DNA from: a virus
Lineage: Duplodnaviria; Caudoviricetes
IMG/VR virus record: IMGVR_UViG_3300042090_001530
Span: 138,491-202,490 of that record
DNA length: 64,000 bases
Direction: 5' to 3' (one strand)
The notes under the pieces are model-generated. The model saw only the letters and a program-made list of their open reading frames with translations, did not search any database and was not told the DNA's origin. Positions 39,063-45,062 of this stretch are shown here, in pieces. Each line of letters starts with the position of its first letter. Within the stretch, counting starts at the first letter, position 1. Made by a program: the position numbers and the translations under genes.

Positions 39063-39113
39063 GCTGTGCTGGCAGGGCGTCGTGGTCGCTACAGGCGGGT
39101 GCGGCGCCCCGCT

Positions 39114-39422
39114 TCACCGTCCCGGCCCGTCCGGTTCCGCCGGGTTGAGCGCGATCAGTGCGAGGCCGTCCAGGTCGACGGGAGCGCGTCGACTCTCGCC
39201 GGCCGTCTGGATCGCGAAGCGCTGTTCGGTGTCGGCGGCGTGGACGAGTACGGCACTGCCGTCGCCGACCGACGCGGCGATCACTGCCCACAGTTCGTCG
39301 CGGACCTTCGCGGACAGCGTCCCCACGTACAGGCCGGGCGTAGGTTCGAGCATCCAACGGCTCAGGGCGCCGCGGACGTGCGGCGCGACTGCGGTCGCGC
39401 TGATGACGGTCAGGTTGCTCAC
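39114..39422 (-). CDS. cas2: Type I-E CRISPR-associated endoribonuclease Cas2
   Basis: VRGALSRWMLEPTPGLYVGTLSAKVRDELW...TEQRF...PVDLDGLALI; GTGA overlap with cas1 stop. Confidence 0.93.
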   Translation of the reverse strand: MSNLTVISATAVAPHVRGALSRWMLEPTPGLYVGTLSAKVRDELWAVIAASVGDGSAVLVHAADTEQRFAIQTAGESRRAPVDLDGLALIALNPAEPDGPGR

Positions 39423-40420
39423 GGCCCGTCCTGCCCTCGGCCGTGGTTGGTGCCGCTCGGTACCGAACCGGCTTCCGGGTCCCAGAGTTCGAATGCGTTG
39501 GCCAGTTCGACATTGCCTGCGGGTTCGATCCCCGGTTCGAACAGGCGCTGGATGTCGCGGACGATGTTCGGCATGAGCCGGAACAGGGTCAGTCCGCGCC
39601 GGAACGCGCGCCTGGCGTCGCCTTCGGGGTCTTCGGATGCGTGCAGGGTGAACGCGAGCGGGATGGTGAGTTCGGCCTTGTACAGGTCGGCGATGTCGTA
39701 CACGAACGCGTGGCTGGTGCCGGCGTGTACGAATCCGAGGCCGGGGGAGCAGCCGAGCGCGGTGATCGCGGCGTGGACGATGCCGTACAGGCACTGGTTG
39801 GCTGCGGTCAGGGCGGCGTTGACGGGGTCTTGGCTTTCCCAGTCTTCGGGGTTGTAGGAGCGGCGGAACGCGTGCAGGCCGTGCTGTTTGGCGAGGCGCC
39901 TGTAGAGGGATTTCATCTGCCAGCCTTCCAGCCCGCGGAGCGTGCCCAGTTTGACGCCGTCGGGCAGTTGCCCTTCCGCAGTGGGGAACCGGTGGGCGTA
40001 CATGCGTTTGGCGACCGTGAGCCGCTTGGCGGGGTCGGCCCAGGCGGCTGCCTGCTTTTCGAGCCAGCGGCTCGACCGGCTGGACGGGGTGATCGCGGCG
40101 TAACAGCGGACGGTGCCCCAGCCGGTGAACACGATGGTGGTGCCGTGTCTGGCGAGGGTGGCGACTGCGGGGTTGGTGATGGAGGTTCCGGGGCCGAGGA
40201 GCAGGCAGCTGATGGCGGCGGTGGGGATGCGGAGGCGGCGTGTCGGGGCGCCGACGGCGGGGAATGCGAGGACGCCTGTGTCGTCTTGGGTGATGCGCAT
40301 GAGGTCGAGGAACAGGAACGAGAGGCTGTCGCCGACGCGTGGGAGCATGGCTGCGGTGGGTGCGGCGATGCGGCGTCGGGCTTGCTGGGTGTTGGGTTGG
40401 GGTTGGTTCTCTGGGTGCAT
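39419..40420 (-). CDS. cas1: Type I-E CRISPR-associated integrase Cas1
   Basis: LLLGPGTSIT, LRGLEG (catalytic E), GLGFVH (H), FVYDIADLYK (D); catalytic set intact. Confidence 0.95.
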   Translation of the reverse strand: MHPENQPQPNTQQARRRIAAPTAAMLPRVGDSLSFLFLDLMRITQDDTGVLAFPAVGAPTRRLRIPTAAISCLLLGPGTSITNPAVATLARHGTTIVFTGWGTVRCYAAITPSSRSSRWLEKQAAAWADPAKRLTVAKRMYAHRFPTAEGQLPDGVKLGTLRGLEGWQMKSLYRRLAKQHGLHAFRRSYNPEDWESQDPVNAALTAANQCLYGIVHAAITALGCSPGLGFVHAGTSHAFVYDIADLYKAELTIPLAFTLHASEDPEGDARRAFRRGLTLFRLMPNIVRDIQRLFEPGIEPAGNVELANAFELWDPEAGSVPSGTNHGRGQDGP

Positions 40421-40513
40421 CCGTTGTTGATAGCGCGGTTTCGCAGAGGGCTGAATGCTTGTCGCACGAACGAGTGACGTGTCGATGTTCGGCCGGTCCG
40501 GATGAGGATCTCC

Positions 40514-40970
40514 CGATCTTCCCGTGCGCTCGCGGGCCAGACCCTGGATGAAGAGGCGTCCGCGCGACCCCGACAGATCTTCCCGTGCGCTCGCGGGCCA
40601 GACCCGACGGCTCGTCATCGTCCGGCAGTGCCCTTAGATCTTCCCGTGCGCTCGCGGGCCAGACCGGAACTCGCGGCGGCCGGAGTGGTGGACGGCAGAT
40701 CTTCCCGTGCGCTCGCGGGCCAGACGCGTCATCCGGCAGATAAACTCGGCCCCGTTGAGATCTTCCCGTGCGCTCGCGGGCCAGACCTGATCGGGGTGCG
40801 ATCAGTCCTGCGCATTGCTAGATCTTCCCGTGCGCTCGCGGGCCAGACTGCCGCCGTCGCCGCGGAGACCGCTGCGGAGAAGATCTTCCCGTGCGCTCGC
40901 GGGCCAGACTCTCGGTCACCTGGTCGAGGTAGCCTTCGGCGAGATCTTCCCGTGCGCTCGCGGGCCAGAC
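40514..40970 (-). CRISPR. CRISPR array, 8 repeats / 7 spacers
   Basis: 29-nt repeat GTCTGGCCCGCGAGCGCACGGGAAGATCT (minus) at 40942, 40881, 40820, 40758, 40697, 40636, 40575, plus 40514 (terminal base variant, trailer). Spacers 32 nt (one 33 nt), i.e. I-E-like 61-bp period. Confidence 0.98.
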
Positions 40971-41005
40971 AGTTCGTGGCCAGCGCAAACACTCTTGAGT
41001 TTTAC
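40971..41005 (-). promoter_or_regulatory. Very short CRISPR leader
   Basis: 35 nt between TnpB-like stop codon and first repeat; ends GCGCTGGCCACGAACT, reminiscent of actinobacterial I-E leader ends (from memory). Confidence 0.5.
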
Positions 41006-42793
41006 TCACGAGTCAAGGGAAGCCGGGGGATCACTCCCCCGAGATGACCCGCCCCGTCGCCGAGACTGGCCTTCCTGCTTCGACAGCGGGGTCGAGAGCC
41101 GCCGGTCACCCGACGGACTTTGCCCACCTCCACAGGCGTTTAGACTCTCCCCGATATCCGAGGCGAGCGGTACCGCATGGTGCAGGATATTGCGCGCAGC
41201 ATTGACCTCGCGGTCAAGCTTCATACCGCACTTGATGTTCCCGCACCGGAAAACCACCTGCGTAAGCGGGATGCTTGGGTCTCGCCATCCACACTTGCAA
41301 CAGGTCTGACTCGACGGCAGGTCCCCGGCCGCAGCCCGGAACCGCGTACCCCACTGCGCCGCCTTGTACTCCAACTGGCGCCGCAACTCGGCAGGCGCCG
41401 TGTCCAGGATCGCCCGGTTGAAGCCGGCCTTCACCTTCACGTCGCTGCCGGGCGCCTCGACGGTGCCCTTCGCGGACCCGGTCATCTGCCGGACATTCAG
41501 GTCGCGGACAGCGATCTCCGGATAGTTGATCGCTATGCTCGCGGAGATCTGGTTCAGGGTGCCGCGCCGCGCCTCCGCAGTCCGATGATGCACGCGGCCG
41601 AGCCGCCTGACCGCCTTGGCACGGTTCGCCGACTGCGCCTGACCGCGCACGAACGGCTTACGCGCCACAGCCTGCGACGCCTTCACCAAAGCCCGCTTGT
41701 GCCTCTTGCCGTACCGAGGATTCTCATACGCAGTCTCGTCCGACAGGGCGACCAGGGTACGAACACCCCACTCGACGCCGACGGCCGGGCGCATCCGCTG
41801 CCGTTCCTTGGAGACCTTCTGCCGGGCCCGGGAGACCTCCTCGCGGTGCCGCATCGCCTCCGGGGACAGTTCGCACAGCACCGACGCGTACCAGCGGGAG
41901 CCGCCCCGGGAGATCGTCACCGACTTGACCACCGCGTGGCCCCGGTCGATCAGCCGCGCGAGGGGCTTGCAGGACTCGAACAGCCGGACCGAACCGATCC
42001 GCGGCACGTTCAGCCGGCGGTGTCCGTCGGGCCGGATCGACGGGTTGTGCACATCGTGGAACAGGGTGAACGAGTCGGTCGAGCGGCCCTTCTTCTTAAA
42101 CCGGGGCCTGCCCATCGCCCGGCCGACCCTGGCCCCGGTGCGCGACGCCATCCAGTTCTGCATCGCCGCCTGGGCGCGGTCGAAGCCGTTGGTGAAGCAG
42201 TACACGGAGACTTCGGGATGCCACGGGGAGCCGCCGTCTGCGGCGTCCTGGTCGCGGATTTCGCGCCACATGGTGGTGCAGTCCATCGCGGACGGGATCG
42301 CGTCGCCGCGCTCGAATCGGGCCTTCTTGAACTGCAGCACCTCGCGGCGCACGGCAGCGAGTCGCTCCTTGATCTCCAGCAGGTCGGGGCGCGTCTTGTC
42401 CTTGACTGCGGCCATCAGGGCTTTGCGCTCGTCGTCGAGCCGTTTGGTGTCGGCGGCCAACTCGGCGGCCTCGGCTTTGAGGATCGGCCGGGCCTGCTTG
42501 TCCCACTGCTTGATCCGCTCGCCGCGCACCTGGGCCGTCCACGCAGCGGTGGACTTCTCGTCCAGGCCGTCGGGCGGCTGCGGCATCGGCCCGGCGATCC
42601 GGGTGATGACCTCGTCGCGGCGCGCCTCCCAGGCGAGTTGGGCTTGGGACATCCATGCGATGCCGCGGTTGGTGGCCCACCGGGTGGCGCCAGCATGCCG
42701 GGCGAAGTCGGCGAGTTGGGCTTGGGTTGGGTCGAGGGCGAACCGATAGGCGCGCAGAACTGGCGCGGGCGCTTCGGTTTCAGCGGTGGCCAT
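41006..42793 (-). CDS. tnpB: RuvC-inactivated TnpB/Cas12-like RNA-guided protein, CRISPR-associated
   Basis: 595 aa; LRAYRFALDP N-terminus, PRFKKKG, Zn finger SQTCCKCG/CGNIKC. RuvC-I VGVEWG (D>E), RuvC-II IAVRDL (E>R), RuvC-III DREVNAARNI (D>E); ~110-aa helical insertion. Confidence 0.9.
   Translation of the reverse strand: MATAETEAPAPVLRAYRFALDPTQAQLADFARHAGATRWATNRGIAWMSQAQLAWEARRDEVITRIAGPMPQPPDGLDEKSTAAWTAQVRGERIKQWDKQARPILKAEAAELAADTKRLDDERKALMAAVKDKTRPDLLEIKERLAAVRREVLQFKKARFERGDAIPSAMDCTTMWREIRDQDAADGGSPWHPEVSVYCFTNGFDRAQAAMQNWMASRTGARVGRAMGRPRFKKKGRSTDSFTLFHDVHNPSIRPDGHRRLNVPRIGSVRLFESCKPLARLIDRGHAVVKSVTISRGGSRWYASVLCELSPEAMRHREEVSRARQKVSKERQRMRPAVGVEWGVRTLVALSDETAYENPRYGKRHKRALVKASQAVARKPFVRGQAQSANRAKAVRRLGRVHHRTAEARRGTLNQISASIAINYPEIAVRDLNVRQMTGSAKGTVEAPGSDVKVKAGFNRAILDTAPAELRRQLEYKAAQWGTRFRAAAGDLPSSQTCCKCGWRDPSIPLTQVVFRCGNIKCGMKLDREVNAARNILHHAVPLASDIGESLNACGGGQSPSGDRRLSTPLSKQEGQSRRRGGSSRGSDPPASLDS
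41012..41152 (-). ncRNA. TnpB omegaRNA-like scaffold overlapping the gene 3' end
   Basis: GGGGAGAGTCTAAACGCC...AAGCAGGAAG...GGGGGAGTGATCCCCCGGCTTCCC, the usual IS605-type 3' overlap encoding ESLNA...KQE; boundaries approximate. Confidence 0.55.
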
Positions 42794-42832
42794 GTTCTAC
42801 TCCTTCCCGGTTCGGCCCTGCAGGTGCGTCAG

Positions 42833-42854
42833 ATTTTAGCGGGTACGTCCGACA
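42833..42854 (-). promoter_or_regulatory. PafBC-type promoter of the TnpB-like/CRISPR unit
   Basis: Minus strand TGTCGG-ACGTACCCGC-TAAAAT = exact TGTCGG-N10-TANNNT; RBS GGAAGGAG downstream. Confidence 0.7.
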
Positions 42855-45062
42855 CTGGCGCGGCAGTCTCGCGAGCCCCTCGTGGCGGGTGGGCGCCGTC
42901 ACCACATCCGGCAAGCGCGCCAGAGCCCGACCGCCACAGCCTCCATGCGGTGCTCGATCAGCCATGCGGCGGTCGCGTCCACACCCCGCGTGGCGCGCAG
43001 CCGGACCCGGGTCCTCCACGGCAGTGGCGGGTGGCGTTTCCACTGGCCGTTCGGCTGCCGATAGAGGTAGGGCGCGGGCTGTCGGTCAGTCACCGTCGCG
43101 CACCCCATCCTTGCCGTTGAATCGCAGCGATTCGCGGATCTGGCGCTCGGGGAGCGGTTTGCCGCGTCCGTCCGTCCATGGCCGGCCCACGGGTCGATCG
43201 GCGTGCGTGTAGGCCCAGACTCTCGCATGGTCGCCCAGGTACCAGAGGGGTGTGCCGCGGCCGTCGGTGCGCACGGTGAAGCCTTCGCCGGCTTCGTAGG
43301 TGAACGATGCACCGGACGGTTCGGAAGCGTGGCTGGGGTCGATCAGGTCGGCGACAACTCTGAGGCATCTACCCGCGAACGCGAGGATCACGAGGCGCCC
43401 CACTCGGCCGCTGTCGCGACTTGGCCGGTCACCATCCTGGATGCCTTCCCATGTAGACGTCGTACCCCACGGCGCCCTCGACGGCCACGATCCCGGCCGC
43501 CGCTTCCTGTCCGGCCTGAACGTACCCGACGTAGTTCGGGTCGCTGATCGCGGCGGCCGTGGGCGGCACGCCGAACACGCTGCCGAAGCCGAGGTCGTCT
43601 TCGGGTTCCGTAGCGGCGGTCGCGTACTTGGACCGCGGCGAGCGGGGACGGTCCGGGTGTGGTGCCGCGCGGGTCACACGGTTCTCTCGGTCGCCCTTGT
43701 GCATCCGTTCCCGAAACTCGTGCAGGGCGATGCCGCCTTCGGGCCAGGTTGCGCCGGTCGCGAGCCAACCGTCGAGCTGCGCGAGCATGATGGACTGCGG
43801 GGTGGGTTCGCGGTCGAGCATTGGGGCTCCAGCGTTCCACCAGCGAACGCCCTCGTTGACCCGGTCGTGGGTCATCGGGAACTTGTCGGCGGTCAGGCCG
43901 AGTTCGGCGCGGTACGCCTCGAAAACGGCGAGCCGTTCCTTGCCGGGCCATTCGCCGGGGTAGGCGGGGAGCAGGCGGTCGGGGATGTCCATGTCACCCA
44001 TTCTCGCCGCCGCCTGCCGCGATCCGTTCGATCTCGAGCCGGTCACGCTCCAGCCGTTCCTCAAGTTGCTCCAGCGTGGACGGGGCGAACGTGTCGCAGC
44101 CGCACCGGCCGTAGCGCGTGCCGCCGGGCAACTCGCGGGCGACGCTGACCGCGCACGGACCGCGCTCATGGGAGGCGTAGTGGTGGCGGCAGTTCTCGCA
44201 CCCGACCGGCAGGAACATCGCGCAGTCGGCGCACACGAACCCGCCGACGGTGAACCGGACGTACGGGGCCTTCGGCTCGCCGCAGGTGCACTCGCAGCAT
44301 GAGCGACAGCGCTCGCAGAGTTCCGCTTCGCCGCCGGGATGCCACCAGTTGCTTCCGCCGTGGCAGTCGCGGCAATCCGGGTGCCCGGTCCTGTGGGCCG
44401 GCGGCCCGCAGGCAGCGCTGGCCGTGTCGAGTGGCGGCGGGGCGTTGCGCTGCGAGTACGGCACGATCGGCAGGTCGGGGCGCATCGCGGACAGTACCGC
44501 GTCGATCGGCCCGTTGGTGAACCCGAGTTGATCGGTGGTGATCGCGGTGAACGTGGCTCCGCAGCCGGGTTGCCCGTGGCTGTCGCCGTGCCCGGAGATC
44601 GTCTCATGTGCGGTTTGTCCGCGGACGAGGGTGCCGCGGCCGCAGTGCGAGCACTTCGATGTATAGCTACTGACGATTATGGTCGCGGTCGCGCCTGGCG
44701 TGGACGGCTCGTCGCGGTATGCGTTGTACGAAGTCTCGCTCACTGCTCGCCACCGCCCACGCCGGCCCGCCCGGCTAGGAACTGCTCGACCCACTGCGCG
44801 TTCGCCTCGCGCGAGTCGTCATACTCGATCCACCGGTCGCTGGCACTGATCTCGCTGGCCGTGATGACGCCTTCCCGGAAGCACTCGTCCCATTCGTCGC
44901 TCAGCCGGTCCCTCACGCGCGGGTCGGTCGCCCGGTCCCGCTCGGCCATGATCAGAGGGCAGTTGCGGAAGAACGTGCCGTCCGACTGCTTGCGATACCA
45001 GGTACGGGGCGCGGGTCCGCTTTCGGTCCGGCGGTGGCGGGTTCGACCCCAGCGGATGCCGG

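What the first reader, a model, noticed from the sequence alone, without database searches (positions are those of the whole stretch)
40942..41152. TnpB omegaRNA-like 3' end fused to a 35-nt leader and first repeat, with candidate anti-repeat contacts
Seen: the gene end retains omegaRNA-type sequence (GGGGAGAGTCTAAACGCC ... hairpin GGGGGAGTGATCCCCC), and the array sits where the flank-derived guide normally is. On the transcribed strand this region has GGCCAGUC (41064-71; 7/8 complementary to the repeat 5' end GUCUGGCC) and CUUCCC (41017-22; complementary to GGGAAG near the repeat 3' end). A TGAGT-TTT-ACTCA palindrome spans the stop codon. Inference: the scaffold may act as a tracrRNA-like partner in trans to each repeat, as expected for a transposon-to-CRISPR intermediate. 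The matches are short and could be chance in GC-rich DNA.
Basis: partly seen in the sequence, partly recalled or inferred. Interest (0 to 1): 0.7.

Follow-up and report, generated by a model that had tools for sequence, protein, structure and literature searches.

The report
Guide-RNA scaffold inside phage Cas12n-like gene
The end of this phage's TnpB-like gene encodes a helper RNA (a tracrRNA descended from a transposon omegaRNA) that pairs with the repeats of the CRISPR array just behind it, a layout already known from Cas12n but found here in a branch that looks nuclease-dead and carries its own spacer-acquisition genes.

Summary
Across 13 related loci, a ~155-170-nt structured RNA (about 41166 to 41006, minus strand) is conserved, with many compensatory base changes.

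Its CUUCCC (41017-22) pairs with GGGAAG of the repeat; all 6 pairs covary.

I found a third contact: a 3-bp pseudoknot between the stem-1 loop GAU (41156-58) and AUC at repeat positions 26-28. It is paired in 13/13 loci and sits at the same position as the RdCas12n pseudoknot.

One metatranscriptome contig covers exactly 40807-41162 and ends in adapter sequence. That end coincides with the start of stem 1 and with the start of the protein's disordered tail (residue 545).

The protein is a Cas12n (type V-N) relative, but its RuvC triad reads E/R/E. It sits on a 202-kb tailed phage next to type I-E cas1-cas2. The ORF-embedded tracrRNA is already known for Cas12n; the nuclease-dead, adaptation-linked phage branch is a new variant.

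This scan has noted ORF-embedded tracrRNAs on other phage DNA before.

The parts
41006..42793 (-). 595-aa Cas12n-like (TnpB-derived) effector gene. The RuvC positions read E341/R430/E529. Residues 545-595 form a disordered tail.
   Evidence: Pfam OrfB_IS605, Cas12f1-like_TNB and HTH. Best solved relative is RdCas12n 9J09, E 1e-60. Triad alignment to ISDra2 TnpB D191/E278/D361 and RdCas12n D287/E386/D484. AlphaFold pLDDT is below 50 from residue 545.
41006..41166 (-). tracrRNA-like scaffold written over the last ~52 codons: four intramolecular stems followed by the anti-repeat.
   Evidence: In 13 loci, 94.4% of cells are paired against 33-52% when partners are slid. 30 pairs changed on both sides against 4-12. 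0/500 shuffles reach this. In L023 most of the scaffold lies beyond the stop codon yet is still conserved.
41146..41166 (-). Stem 1 (UCGCCUCG / CGGGGAGA) with loop GAUAU.
   Evidence: Helix 1: 97% paired, 3 pairs with changes on both sides. Coordinates.
41156..41158 (-). Pseudoknot arm GAU in the stem-1 loop. It pairs with AUC at repeat positions 26-28 (40943-40945 in repeat 1), i.e. -4 to -2 before the spacer.
   Evidence: 13/13 loci are paired at all 3 positions, with pair types AU/GC/GU and UA/CG. The loop also pairs with GUC of the omegaRNA 3' end GUCAA in array-less TnpB relatives. RdCas12n has its pseudoknot at the same place (PMC12216341).
41135..41152 (-). It encodes GESLNAC, the counterpart of SDTLNAH in ISDra2 TnpB.
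   Evidence: Alignments.
41074..41136 (-). Stem 2, a long bipartite stem with the inner hairpin GUCGGGUGACCGGC.
   Evidence: Helices 3-7. Coordinates.
41048..41071 (-). Stem 3 region.
   Evidence: Helices 8-9 (3/3 inner pairs compensatory). The proposed repeat contact fails in homologs.
41023..41042 (-). Stem 4 hairpin UCGGGGGAGUGAUCCCCCGG.
   Evidence: Helix 10: 98% paired, 5 of 8 pairs with changes on both sides.
41008..41022 (-). Anti-repeat. The core CUUCCC (41017-41022) pairs with GGGAAG at repeat positions 20-25. In this locus the duplex extends through UG and CUCGU to the repeat's GCGAG, covering the 3' 20 nt of the repeat.
   Evidence: Helix 11: 6/6 pairs compensatory, 96% paired. RNAduplex gives -17.4 kcal/mol. 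Permutation test p about 1e-5.
40992..41012 (-). Its 3' arm is the conserved AACUCAAGAGUG.
   Evidence: Helix 13: 80% paired. L022 has a perfect CUCUUGA/UCAAGAG. Also present in the MFE and centroid folds.
40971..41005 (-). 35-nt gap between the stop codon and repeat 1. It is transcribed together with the scaffold and the array.
   Evidence: The gap is 35-44 nt in 9 phage-type loci. The RNA contig bridges it.
40514..40970 (-). CRISPR array of 8 repeats, GUCUGGCCCGCGAGCGCACGGGAAGAUC plus a 29th base, with 32-nt spacers (type I-E geometry). The 29th base is U before each spacer and G after the last repeat.
40807..41162 (.). Stretch held by a single 376-nt metatranscriptome contig (depth 101, no mismatches) that continues into Illumina adapter letters at 41162.
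   Evidence: tables 2, 7 and 8. There is no cover on the rest of 39100-42800 in that run.
39419..40420 (-). cas1, type I-E (Cas1e).
   Evidence: TIGR03638, 322.7 bits against a cut-off of 215.6. Pfam Cas_Cas1.
39114..39422 (-). cas2, type I-E (Cas2e, CT1978 family).
   Evidence: TIGR01873, 76.1 bits against a cut-off of 33.15. Translation.

Best explanation
The last ~155-170 nt of the 595-aa TnpB-like gene (about 41166 down to 41006-40990, minus strand) encode a Cas12n-type tracrRNA, a direct descendant of the TnpB omegaRNA scaffold. It folds into four stems and touches each CRISPR repeat at two places. The anti-repeat that starts at CUUCCC (41022-41017) pairs with the 3' half of the repeat (GGGAAG and upstream). 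The stem-1 loop GAU (41158-41156) forms a 3-bp pseudoknot with AUC just before the spacer. Together these rebuild the terminal hairpin and pseudoknot of a TnpB omegaRNA, with the spacer where the transposon-flank guide used to be. The scaffold, the 35-nt gap and the array are present on one RNA. Shown here: the RNA structure and both contacts by covariation, homology to the omegaRNA and to Cas12n, and presence of the RNA in a metatranscriptome. Inferred: the protein binds this RNA pair and is guided to DNA. Because its RuvC triad is E/R/E, it probably binds rather than cuts. The neighbouring Cas1e-Cas2e probably supply the spacers.
For: 1. Protein. The best solved relative is RdCas12n (9J09), E 1e-60. 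It is 49% identical to the Actinomadura craniellae protein.
2. Literature. Cas12n has a disordered C-terminal loop, a tracrRNA overlapping its ORF, a 170-nt tracrRNA with five stems, and a pseudoknot between -4..-2 and the stem-1 region (PMC12216341).
3. Covariation in 13 loci. 94.4% of cells are paired against 33-52% when slid. 30 pairs are compensatory against 4-12. The anti-repeat helix is 6/6 compensatory. The pseudoknot is 13/13 paired with 2 covarying pairs.
4. RNAalifold finds the anti-repeat:repeat helix unprompted.
5. Cognate anti-repeat/repeat duplexes sum to -187 kcal/mol against -141.5 +/- 10 for permuted pairs, p about 1e-5. A control window gives p 0.6.
6. In L023 the ORF stops early, and most of the scaffold is non-coding yet conserved.
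7. Covariance model R1 hits the 3' ends of about 50 array-less TnpB genes, with E down to 1e-13. Their omegaRNAs end in a hairpin plus GUCAA and then the guide. The anti-repeat matches the hairpin's 5' arm and the repeat's 3' half matches its 3' arm.
8. The metatranscriptome contig 40807-41162 has depth 101, an adapter at 41162, and no cover on the flanking genes.
9. pLDDT collapses from residue 545, which corresponds to position 41161.
10. The order effector, ~35-nt gap, 61-bp-period array is kept in loci of 48-94% protein identity.
Against: The RNA evidence is a single assembled contig. It gives no strand and no true end mapping, and it may come from the same sampling campaign as the source DNA. 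No mature tracrRNA or crRNA ends are known, so action in trans versus in cis is open. In some loci (L022, L025, L027) the cognate duplex is weak (-6 to -13 kcal/mol). No sigma-70-like promoter or canonical terminator was found for the scaffold. No protospacer was found, so targeting and the PAM are untested. Protein binding to this RNA is inferred only from homology.
Confidence: 0.85

Rival explanations
1. Fused single guide acting in cis. The scaffold, gap, repeat 1 and spacer 1 work as one omegaRNA-like molecule. The anti-repeat pairs only with the first repeat of the same transcript, so mainly the newest spacer is used. Downstream spacers would need separate processing or would be little used.
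For: The RNA contig runs without a break from the scaffold through the gap into repeats 1-3. The gap length is fixed at 35-44 nt in 9 phage-type loci. Bacterial relatives have mini-arrays of 2-4 repeats. TnpB is reported to process its own mRNA into the omegaRNA (bioRxiv 10.64898/2026.03.27.714800).
Against: All 8 repeats are identical in the paired positions, so each can pair in trans. Arrays reach 18 repeats in L021, and the presence of an adaptation module argues that many spacers are used. Published Cas12n works with separate tracrRNA and crRNA (PMC12216341).
Confidence: 0.1
2. Chance neighbours. An ordinary TnpB/IS element with its own omegaRNA landed beside a type I-E array. That array is served by the host's Cascade, and the scaffold has nothing to do with the repeats.
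For: The repeats, spacer length, Cas1e and Cas2e are of type I-E. NCBIfam's best model for the protein is IS607_TnpB. Four other TnpB genes lie in the same phage.
Against: The anti-repeat and the pseudoknot covary with repeats that differ between loci. The same order and spacing hold over 48-94% protein identity. No TnpA was found next to the gene, and no second copy of the gene is in the record. The three Pfam Cascade models tried found nothing in the 202-kb record. The RuvC triad is lost, which does not fit a homing nuclease.
Confidence: 0.03
3. Protein constraint only. The conservation of 41006-41166 reflects the protein's C-terminal tail, and the effector uses crRNA alone, as Cas12m does.
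For: The region is coding. Motifs such as GESLNAC and SRGSDPPAS are conserved at the protein level.
Against: 30 base pairs have compensatory double changes. In L023 the scaffold is largely outside the ORF. The tail is predicted disordered. An abundant RNA ends at the scaffold's 5' edge while the rest of the ORF has no cover.
Confidence: 0.02

Closest known systems
Cas12n, type V-N (formerly V-U4/C2c9): RdCas12n (PDB 9J09) and AcCas12n
   Same: The protein is homologous (E 1e-60). The tracrRNA is written over a disordered C-terminal tail. The scaffold is ~170 nt with multiple stems. An anti-repeat pairs with the 3' ~20 nt of the repeat. A pseudoknot uses positions -4..-2 before the guide. The array lies directly downstream with a 61-bp period, as in the bacterial AcCas12n-like loci L026-L028.
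   Different: The RuvC D/E/D triad is E/R/E in the whole phage clade. Cas1e-Cas2e are linked. Arrays are longer (8-18 repeats). The system is carried by ~100-200-kb phages. This sub-branch has an extra ~100-aa helical REC insertion. The PAM is untested.
TnpB with omegaRNA (IS607/IS200-IS605; ISDra2 TnpB, PDB 8EXA/8H1J)
   Same: The protein core and zinc finger are shared. The scaffold starts at the same C-terminal motif (SDTLNAH versus GESLNAC). The covariance model of the scaffold hits about 50 TnpB 3' ends. The stem-1 loop pseudoknot to the bases just before the guide is shared.
   Different: There is no TnpA, no transposon ends and no second copy. The terminal omegaRNA hairpin is split into the anti-repeat (tracr) and the repeat 3' half (crRNA). 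The guide comes from acquired spacers, not from the flank. The nuclease triad is lost.
TranC, transposon-CRISPR intermediates (LaTranC, PDB 9JFO/9JFQ; Jin et al. 2025, as cited in bioRxiv 10.64898/2026.03.27.714800)
   Same: The concept is the same: a right-end RNA split into tracrRNA and crRNA. The terminal hairpin here is split in just that way.
   Different: Sequence similarity to LaTranC is only weak (E 6e-8). The locus belongs to the Cas12n/IS607-like branch. Use of both a fused and a split guide was not tested.
Cas12m (type V-M), Cas12k and TldR: nuclease-deficient TnpB/Cas12 derivatives that bind DNA
   Same: The catalytic triad is substituted while the fold and guide RNA are intact, which suggests RNA-guided binding or repression.
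   Different: Cas12m uses crRNA alone and has no adaptation genes. TldR has a single fixed guide and no array. Cas12k works with Tn7-like transposition genes. None of them is the closest relative by sequence.
Type I-E CRISPR adaptation module and array
   Same: Cas1e and Cas2e score above NCBIfam cut-offs. Repeats are 28+1 nt and spacers 32 nt. The 29th repeat base behaves as PAM-derived.
   Different: No Cas7e, Cse1 or Cas6e match was found in the phage record. The repeat's 3' half is read by a type V scaffold.

Membership tests
Cas12n / type V-N | Effector homologous to characterised Cas12n proteins | tested here: met
   phmmer against 9J09 (RdCas12n): E 1e-60, 209 bits. 49% identity to the A. 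craniellae 505-aa protein.
Cas12n / type V-N | tracrRNA overlapping the 3' end of the ORF, with an anti-repeat to the CRISPR repeat | tested here: met
   Covariation in 13 loci. Permutation test. RNA contig.
Cas12n / type V-N | Disordered C-terminal tail | tested here: met
   pLDDT is 26-31 for residues 545-595 and 85-95 just before.
Cas12n / type V-N | Pseudoknot between repeat positions -4..-2 and the stem-1 region of the tracrRNA | tested here: met
   GAU (41156-41158) with AUC is paired in 13/13 loci and covaries. Compare PMC12216341, section 11.
Cas12n / type V-N | Intact RuvC D-E-D triad and dsDNA cleavage | tested here: not met
   E341/R430/E529 align to D287/E386/D484 of RdCas12n and D191/E278/D361 of ISDra2 TnpB. 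All 16 phage-clade proteins in A4 (P0001-P0024) have E/R/E. Cleavage itself cannot be tested here.
Cas12n / type V-N | 5'-AAN PAM | tested here: inconclusive
   No protospacer was found in the phage and plasmid collections, in the phage's own record, or for two spacers in IMG/VR.
TnpB-omegaRNA transposon module | omegaRNA scaffold overlapping the tnpB 3' end | tested here: met
   Model R1 hits about 50 array-less TnpB 3' ends, E down to 1e-13.
TnpB-omegaRNA transposon module | Mobile element context: TnpA, transposon ends, several copies, flank-derived guide | tested here: not met
   Neighbouring ORFs have no Pfam transposase. The other TnpB genes in the record are only 33-38% identical. The guide position is taken by a CRISPR array.
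Type I-E CRISPR-Cas | Cas1e and Cas2e | tested here: met
   TIGR03638 at 322.7 bits and TIGR01873 at 76.1 bits, both above cut-off.
Type I-E CRISPR-Cas | Cascade (Cse1, Cas7e, Cas6e) and Cas3 | tested here: not met
   PF09344, PF08798 and PF09481 have no match in the 202-kb record. The controls rang in only one of 14 genomes, so sensitivity is limited. Cas3 was not searched.
TranC | Membership of the published TranC clades and use of both reRNA and crRNA | not tested
   Only a weak phmmer hit to LaTranC (E 6e-8). No tree was built.

The most novel reading that the evidence does not exclude
This is a phage-borne, nuclease-dead offshoot of Cas12n that still acquires spacers. A TnpB-type scaffold and a type I-E-derived array are made as one precursor RNA. 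The scaffold reads the I-E repeat's 3' half as the missing arm of its omegaRNA hairpin. Cas1e-Cas2e feed it spacers with an A-rich PAM in the right orientation. On this reading it is a natural adaptive CRISPRi of a phage. Capture of I-E arrays would also explain why Cas12n, unlike other type V effectors, reads AAN PAMs.
Probability: 0.4. Interest if true: 0.8.

Novelty: new variant of a known kind. Interest (0 to 1): 0.58.

Why it matters
The helper RNA itself is what Cas12n is already known to have, so this part of the locus is confirmation rather than discovery. It still adds three things.

- It gives a clear natural picture of how an omegaRNA terminal hairpin and pseudoknot were split between a tracrRNA and a borrowed type I-E repeat.
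- It provides covariation-level base-pair maps (anti-repeat and pseudoknot) that allow a single-guide RNA to be designed directly for this clade.
- It shows that the guide apparatus is intact and expressed in a branch whose nuclease triad is lost and which has its own Cas1-Cas2. That makes the idea of an adaptive, binding-only type V system in phages directly testable.

Tried and rejected
GGCCAGUC (41064-71) with the repeat 5' end is rejected. It is 7/8 paired only in this locus, its 94% twin and (with wobbles) L021, and 3-5/8 elsewhere. The permutation test gives p 0.10. The segment forms a covarying internal stem.
- **Rfam.** No family matched 40400-41500; only chance-level hits.
- **Promoter and terminator scan of 40300-43000.** Nothing usable.
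- **Spacer targets.** No match in the phage collection, the plasmid collection, the phage's own genome or the fetched loci. Two spacer seeds had no exact match in IMG/VR. The PAM and the targets therefore stay unknown.
- **Pattern-based locus searches with the single protein.** Nothing found. The homologs came from the protein database and identity look-ups instead.
- **AcCas12n natural locus.** The A. craniellae protein was not on record for a contig look-up. L026-L028 served as bacterial AcCas12n-like loci.
- **Pfam HK97 capsid and TerL_ATPase models.** No hit in the record. PHROGs did identify terminase, portal and tape measure.
- **Extended half of the anti-repeat duplex (CUCGU:GCGAG).** It is not conserved position by position across loci. 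I claim only the 6-bp core as covarying.
- **RNA contig end at 40807.** Not interpreted.
Full report
**Layout.** All parts lie on the minus strand of the window.
- A 595-aa ORF occupies 41006-42793 (P0001), with stop codon TGA at 41006-41008.
- A 35-nt gap follows (40971-41005).
- The CRISPR array has eight repeats (40514-40970). The repeat is GUCUGGCCCGCGAGCGCACGGGAAGAUC plus a 29th base, the spacers are 32 nt, and the period is 61-62 bp.
- Then come cas1 (39419-40420) and cas2 (39114-39422).

The window is part of a 202,490-bp IMG/VR virus record with a CheckV completeness of 98%. PHROGs finds a large terminase, a portal, a tape measure and tail fibre proteins. It is therefore a tailed phage; its GC content is 68.6%.

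**The protein.**
- Pfam gives OrfB_IS605, Cas12f1-like_TNB and HTH_OrfB_IS605.
- The best solved relative is 9J09, E 1e-60. That entry is Rothia dentocariosa Cas12n (PMC12216341).
- The protein is 49% identical to a 505-aa Actinomadura craniellae protein, very probably AcCas12n, which a review lists as 506 aa from that species (PMC11641405).
- NCBIfam places Cas1 and Cas2 in type I-E, both above cut-off.
- No Cas7e, Cas6e or Cse1 Pfam match exists in the record. The controls for these searches were weak.

**What is published.** Fu et al. [quoted passage not shown] The RdCas12n guide consists of a 170-nt tracrRNA and a 40-nt crRNA. The scaffold has five stems and a pseudoknot in which -4U to -2C pair with -168A to -170G, extending stem 1. 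The question becomes whether it holds here and which contacts are real.

**Homologous loci.**
- The protein search returned about 200 relatives.
- Identity look-ups fetched 11 loci from metagenomes, at 46-94% protein identity.
- A genome scan added three bacterial AcCas12n-like loci: L026 (a Streptomyces plasmid), L027 (a Mycolicibacterium MAG) and L028.
- Every locus that extends far enough has an array starting 16-44 nt after the stop. L023 is the exception at 156 nt, because its ORF ends early.
- The period is always 61 bp, but the repeat sequences differ.
- Cas1e-Cas2e follow the array in L015, L018, L019 and L021. They are absent within the flank in the more distant and the bacterial loci.

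**RNA structure.** RNAalifold was run on alignments that run from inside the ORF to the end of repeat 1. It predicts four intramolecular stems. Unprompted, it also predicts a helix between CUUCCC (41022-41017) and GGGAAG of the repeat.

On the 13-locus alignment A3:

| Measure | As predicted | 3' partners slid |
|---|---|---|
| Cells forming standard pairs | 94.4% | 33-52% |
| Pairs with changes on both sides | 30 | 4-12 |

No shuffle out of 500 reaches the observed values. The anti-repeat helix has compensatory changes at all 6 pairs:

| Locus | Anti-repeat | Repeat |
|---|---|---|
| L018 | CUUCCA | UGGAAG |
| L021 | CUUCU | AGAAG |
| L026 | CAUCCCC | GGGGAUG |
| L027 | UCACCC | GGGUGA |
| L028 | CCGUCCC | GGGACGG |

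A test that does not depend on the alignment gives the same answer. I computed duplex energies between the 20 nt after stem 4 and the repeat's last 20 nt. Cognate pairs sum to -187 kcal/mol, against -141.5 +/- 10 for permuted pairings, p about 1e-5. A control scaffold window gives p 0.6.

In this locus the duplex runs CUUCCC / UG / CUCGU against GGGAAG / CA / GCGAG. It thus covers exactly the 3' 20 nt of the repeat, the length of the repeat tag in the native Cas12n crRNA.

The stem-1 loop begins with G-R-Y (GAU here, 41158-41156). It is complementary to repeat positions 26-28 (AUC here). All 13 loci pair at all three positions, with AU/GC/GU at one position and UA/CG at the other. This is position -4 to -2 before the spacer, the same as the RdCas12n pseudoknot.

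**The contact that fails.** GGCCAGUC (41071-41064) against the repeat 5' end GUCUGGCC is 7/8 paired here, in the 94%-identical L015, and (counting wobbles) in L021. It is 3-5/8 paired in the other loci. The permutation test gives p 0.10. The segment belongs to the near-invariant motif CAGGAAGRCC. It forms a covarying internal stem with GGCGGG at 41053-41048. Matches of this quality occur 3-4 times per 154 nt in shuffles and in control ORF windows.

**The palindrome over the stop codon.** It is a conserved hairpin, CUCGUGAGU-AAA-ACUCAAGAG (40992-41012). L022 has a perfect version. Its role is open: it could be the 3' end of the scaffold or a leader signal for integration.

**RNA rather than protein constraint.** In L023 the ORF stops inside stem 2, so the rest of the scaffold is non-coding. 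It is nevertheless conserved and covaries. AlphaFold2, run with a 22-sequence alignment, models residues 8-544 with confidence apart from a lid-like loop at 435-465. It gives pLDDT 26-31 for residues 545-595. Codon 545 starts at 41161.

**Expression.** One public metatranscriptome holds part of the stretch. It comes from a wetland and from a different study than the likely source DNA run. It holds a single 376-nt contig of depth 101.
- The contig is identical to 40807-41162.
- It continues at 41162 into ATCGGAAGAGCACACGTCTG, which is Illumina adapter sequence (my identification).
- The cas12n coding region upstream of 41162, cas1 and cas2 have no cover in that run. DNA runs cover them evenly.

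A contig shows neither strand nor level, so this is a hint, not a mapping. Even so, an adapter read-through assembled at one place suggests many fragments ending there. Three independent lines put the scaffold's 5' edge at 41160-41166: the contig end, the start of stem 1 and the start of the disordered tail. The contig also bridges scaffold, gap, repeat 1, spacer 1, repeat 2, spacer 2 and repeat 3, so the gap is transcribed.

**Link to omegaRNA.** A covariance model of the scaffold (R1) finds matches at the 3' ends of about 50 TnpB genes that have no array. E-values go down to 1e-13, and three of the hits are other TnpB genes of this same phage. In those elements the RNA ends with a hairpin such as CCCUCCC-UUCA-GGGAGGG. 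Then come AGGAAGUCAA and the flank. Their stem-1 loop (GAC or GGC) is complementary to the GUC of GUCAA.

The anti-repeat therefore corresponds to the 5' arm of that terminal hairpin. The repeat's GGGAAG corresponds to the 3' arm, and AUC corresponds to GUC. This is the "functional RNA splitting" route from right-end RNA to tracrRNA plus crRNA, as described for TranC systems (cited in bioRxiv 10.64898/2026.03.27.714800).

**The effector's active site.**
- Alignment to RdCas12n and to ISDra2 TnpB puts E341, R430 and E529 at the catalytic D/E/D positions.
- All 16 phage-clade proteins in alignment A4 (P0001-P0024, 48-95% identical to P0001) have E/R/E.
- The bacterial AcCas12n-like proteins keep D/E/D.
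- The zinc-finger cysteines are intact.

I infer a DNA binder rather than a cutter, as for Cas12m, Cas12k or TldR. This is not shown. Altae-Tran et al. 2023 report several inactivated V-U branches and at least 12 independent captures of adaptation genes by Cas12 (PMC10691335). I could not tell whether this clade is among their numbered groups.

**Verdict.** The ORF-embedded tracrRNA is already known for Cas12n. The variant is its use in a nuclease-dead, Cas1e-Cas2e-linked phage clade, together with evidence for a joint scaffold-array transcript. Other agents of this scan have reported ORF-embedded tracrRNAs in other phage TnpB-derived systems, and first-reader notes on this genome flagged the dead triad and the PAM-derived base. 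I checked the triad and the 29th base myself.

Noticed in passing
L027:5012-5044 and L027:3479-3511: In the Mycolicibacterium MAG's AcCas12n-like locus, the first spacer matches the very start of its own cas12n gene with 2 mismatches in 33 nt. This could be autoregulation or a relic of transposon-style homing.
   Followed up: no
40942, 40881, 40820 and the other 29th repeat positions; L021 array: The 29th repeat base is U before all 7 spacers here and G after the last repeat. In L021 it is G 16 times and A twice within one array. It therefore behaves like the PAM-derived first base of type I-E prespacers. That would fit an AAN-type PAM for the effector.
   Followed up: partly
40952 (repeat position 19): This phage's repeat has C where its 94% relative L015 has G (GCGCAC-GGG versus GCGCAG-GGG). 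This introduces a mismatch in the anti-repeat duplex (-17.4 versus -21.3 kcal/mol).
   Followed up: partly
L013:2360-2488, L012:1480-1604, L010:2489-2641 (same phage, outside the window): Three other TnpB genes of the phage carry omegaRNA scaffolds that match the same covariance model. They end in hairpin-GUCAA-guide with no array, so the fused and the split forms of the RNA coexist in one genome.
   Followed up: partly
42300-42620 (residues about 60-165 of P0001): A roughly 100-residue, confidently helical insertion in the REC region is present in P0001-P0006, P0019, P0020, P0026 and P0034. It is absent from the 508-aa phage relatives (P0007-P0018) and from AcCas12n.
   Followed up: no
L023:5684-5838: In this relative the ORF ends inside scaffold stem 2, and an extra ~30 nt lies between the anti-repeat and the conserved AACUCAACAGUG. 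It is a natural case of the tracrRNA uncoupled from the coding sequence.
   Followed up: partly
L024:6543-7028: The long array of this 741-aa relative is interrupted by about 490 bp that contains degenerate repeat-like pieces. The relative carries an extra N-terminal He_PIG domain.
   Followed up: no
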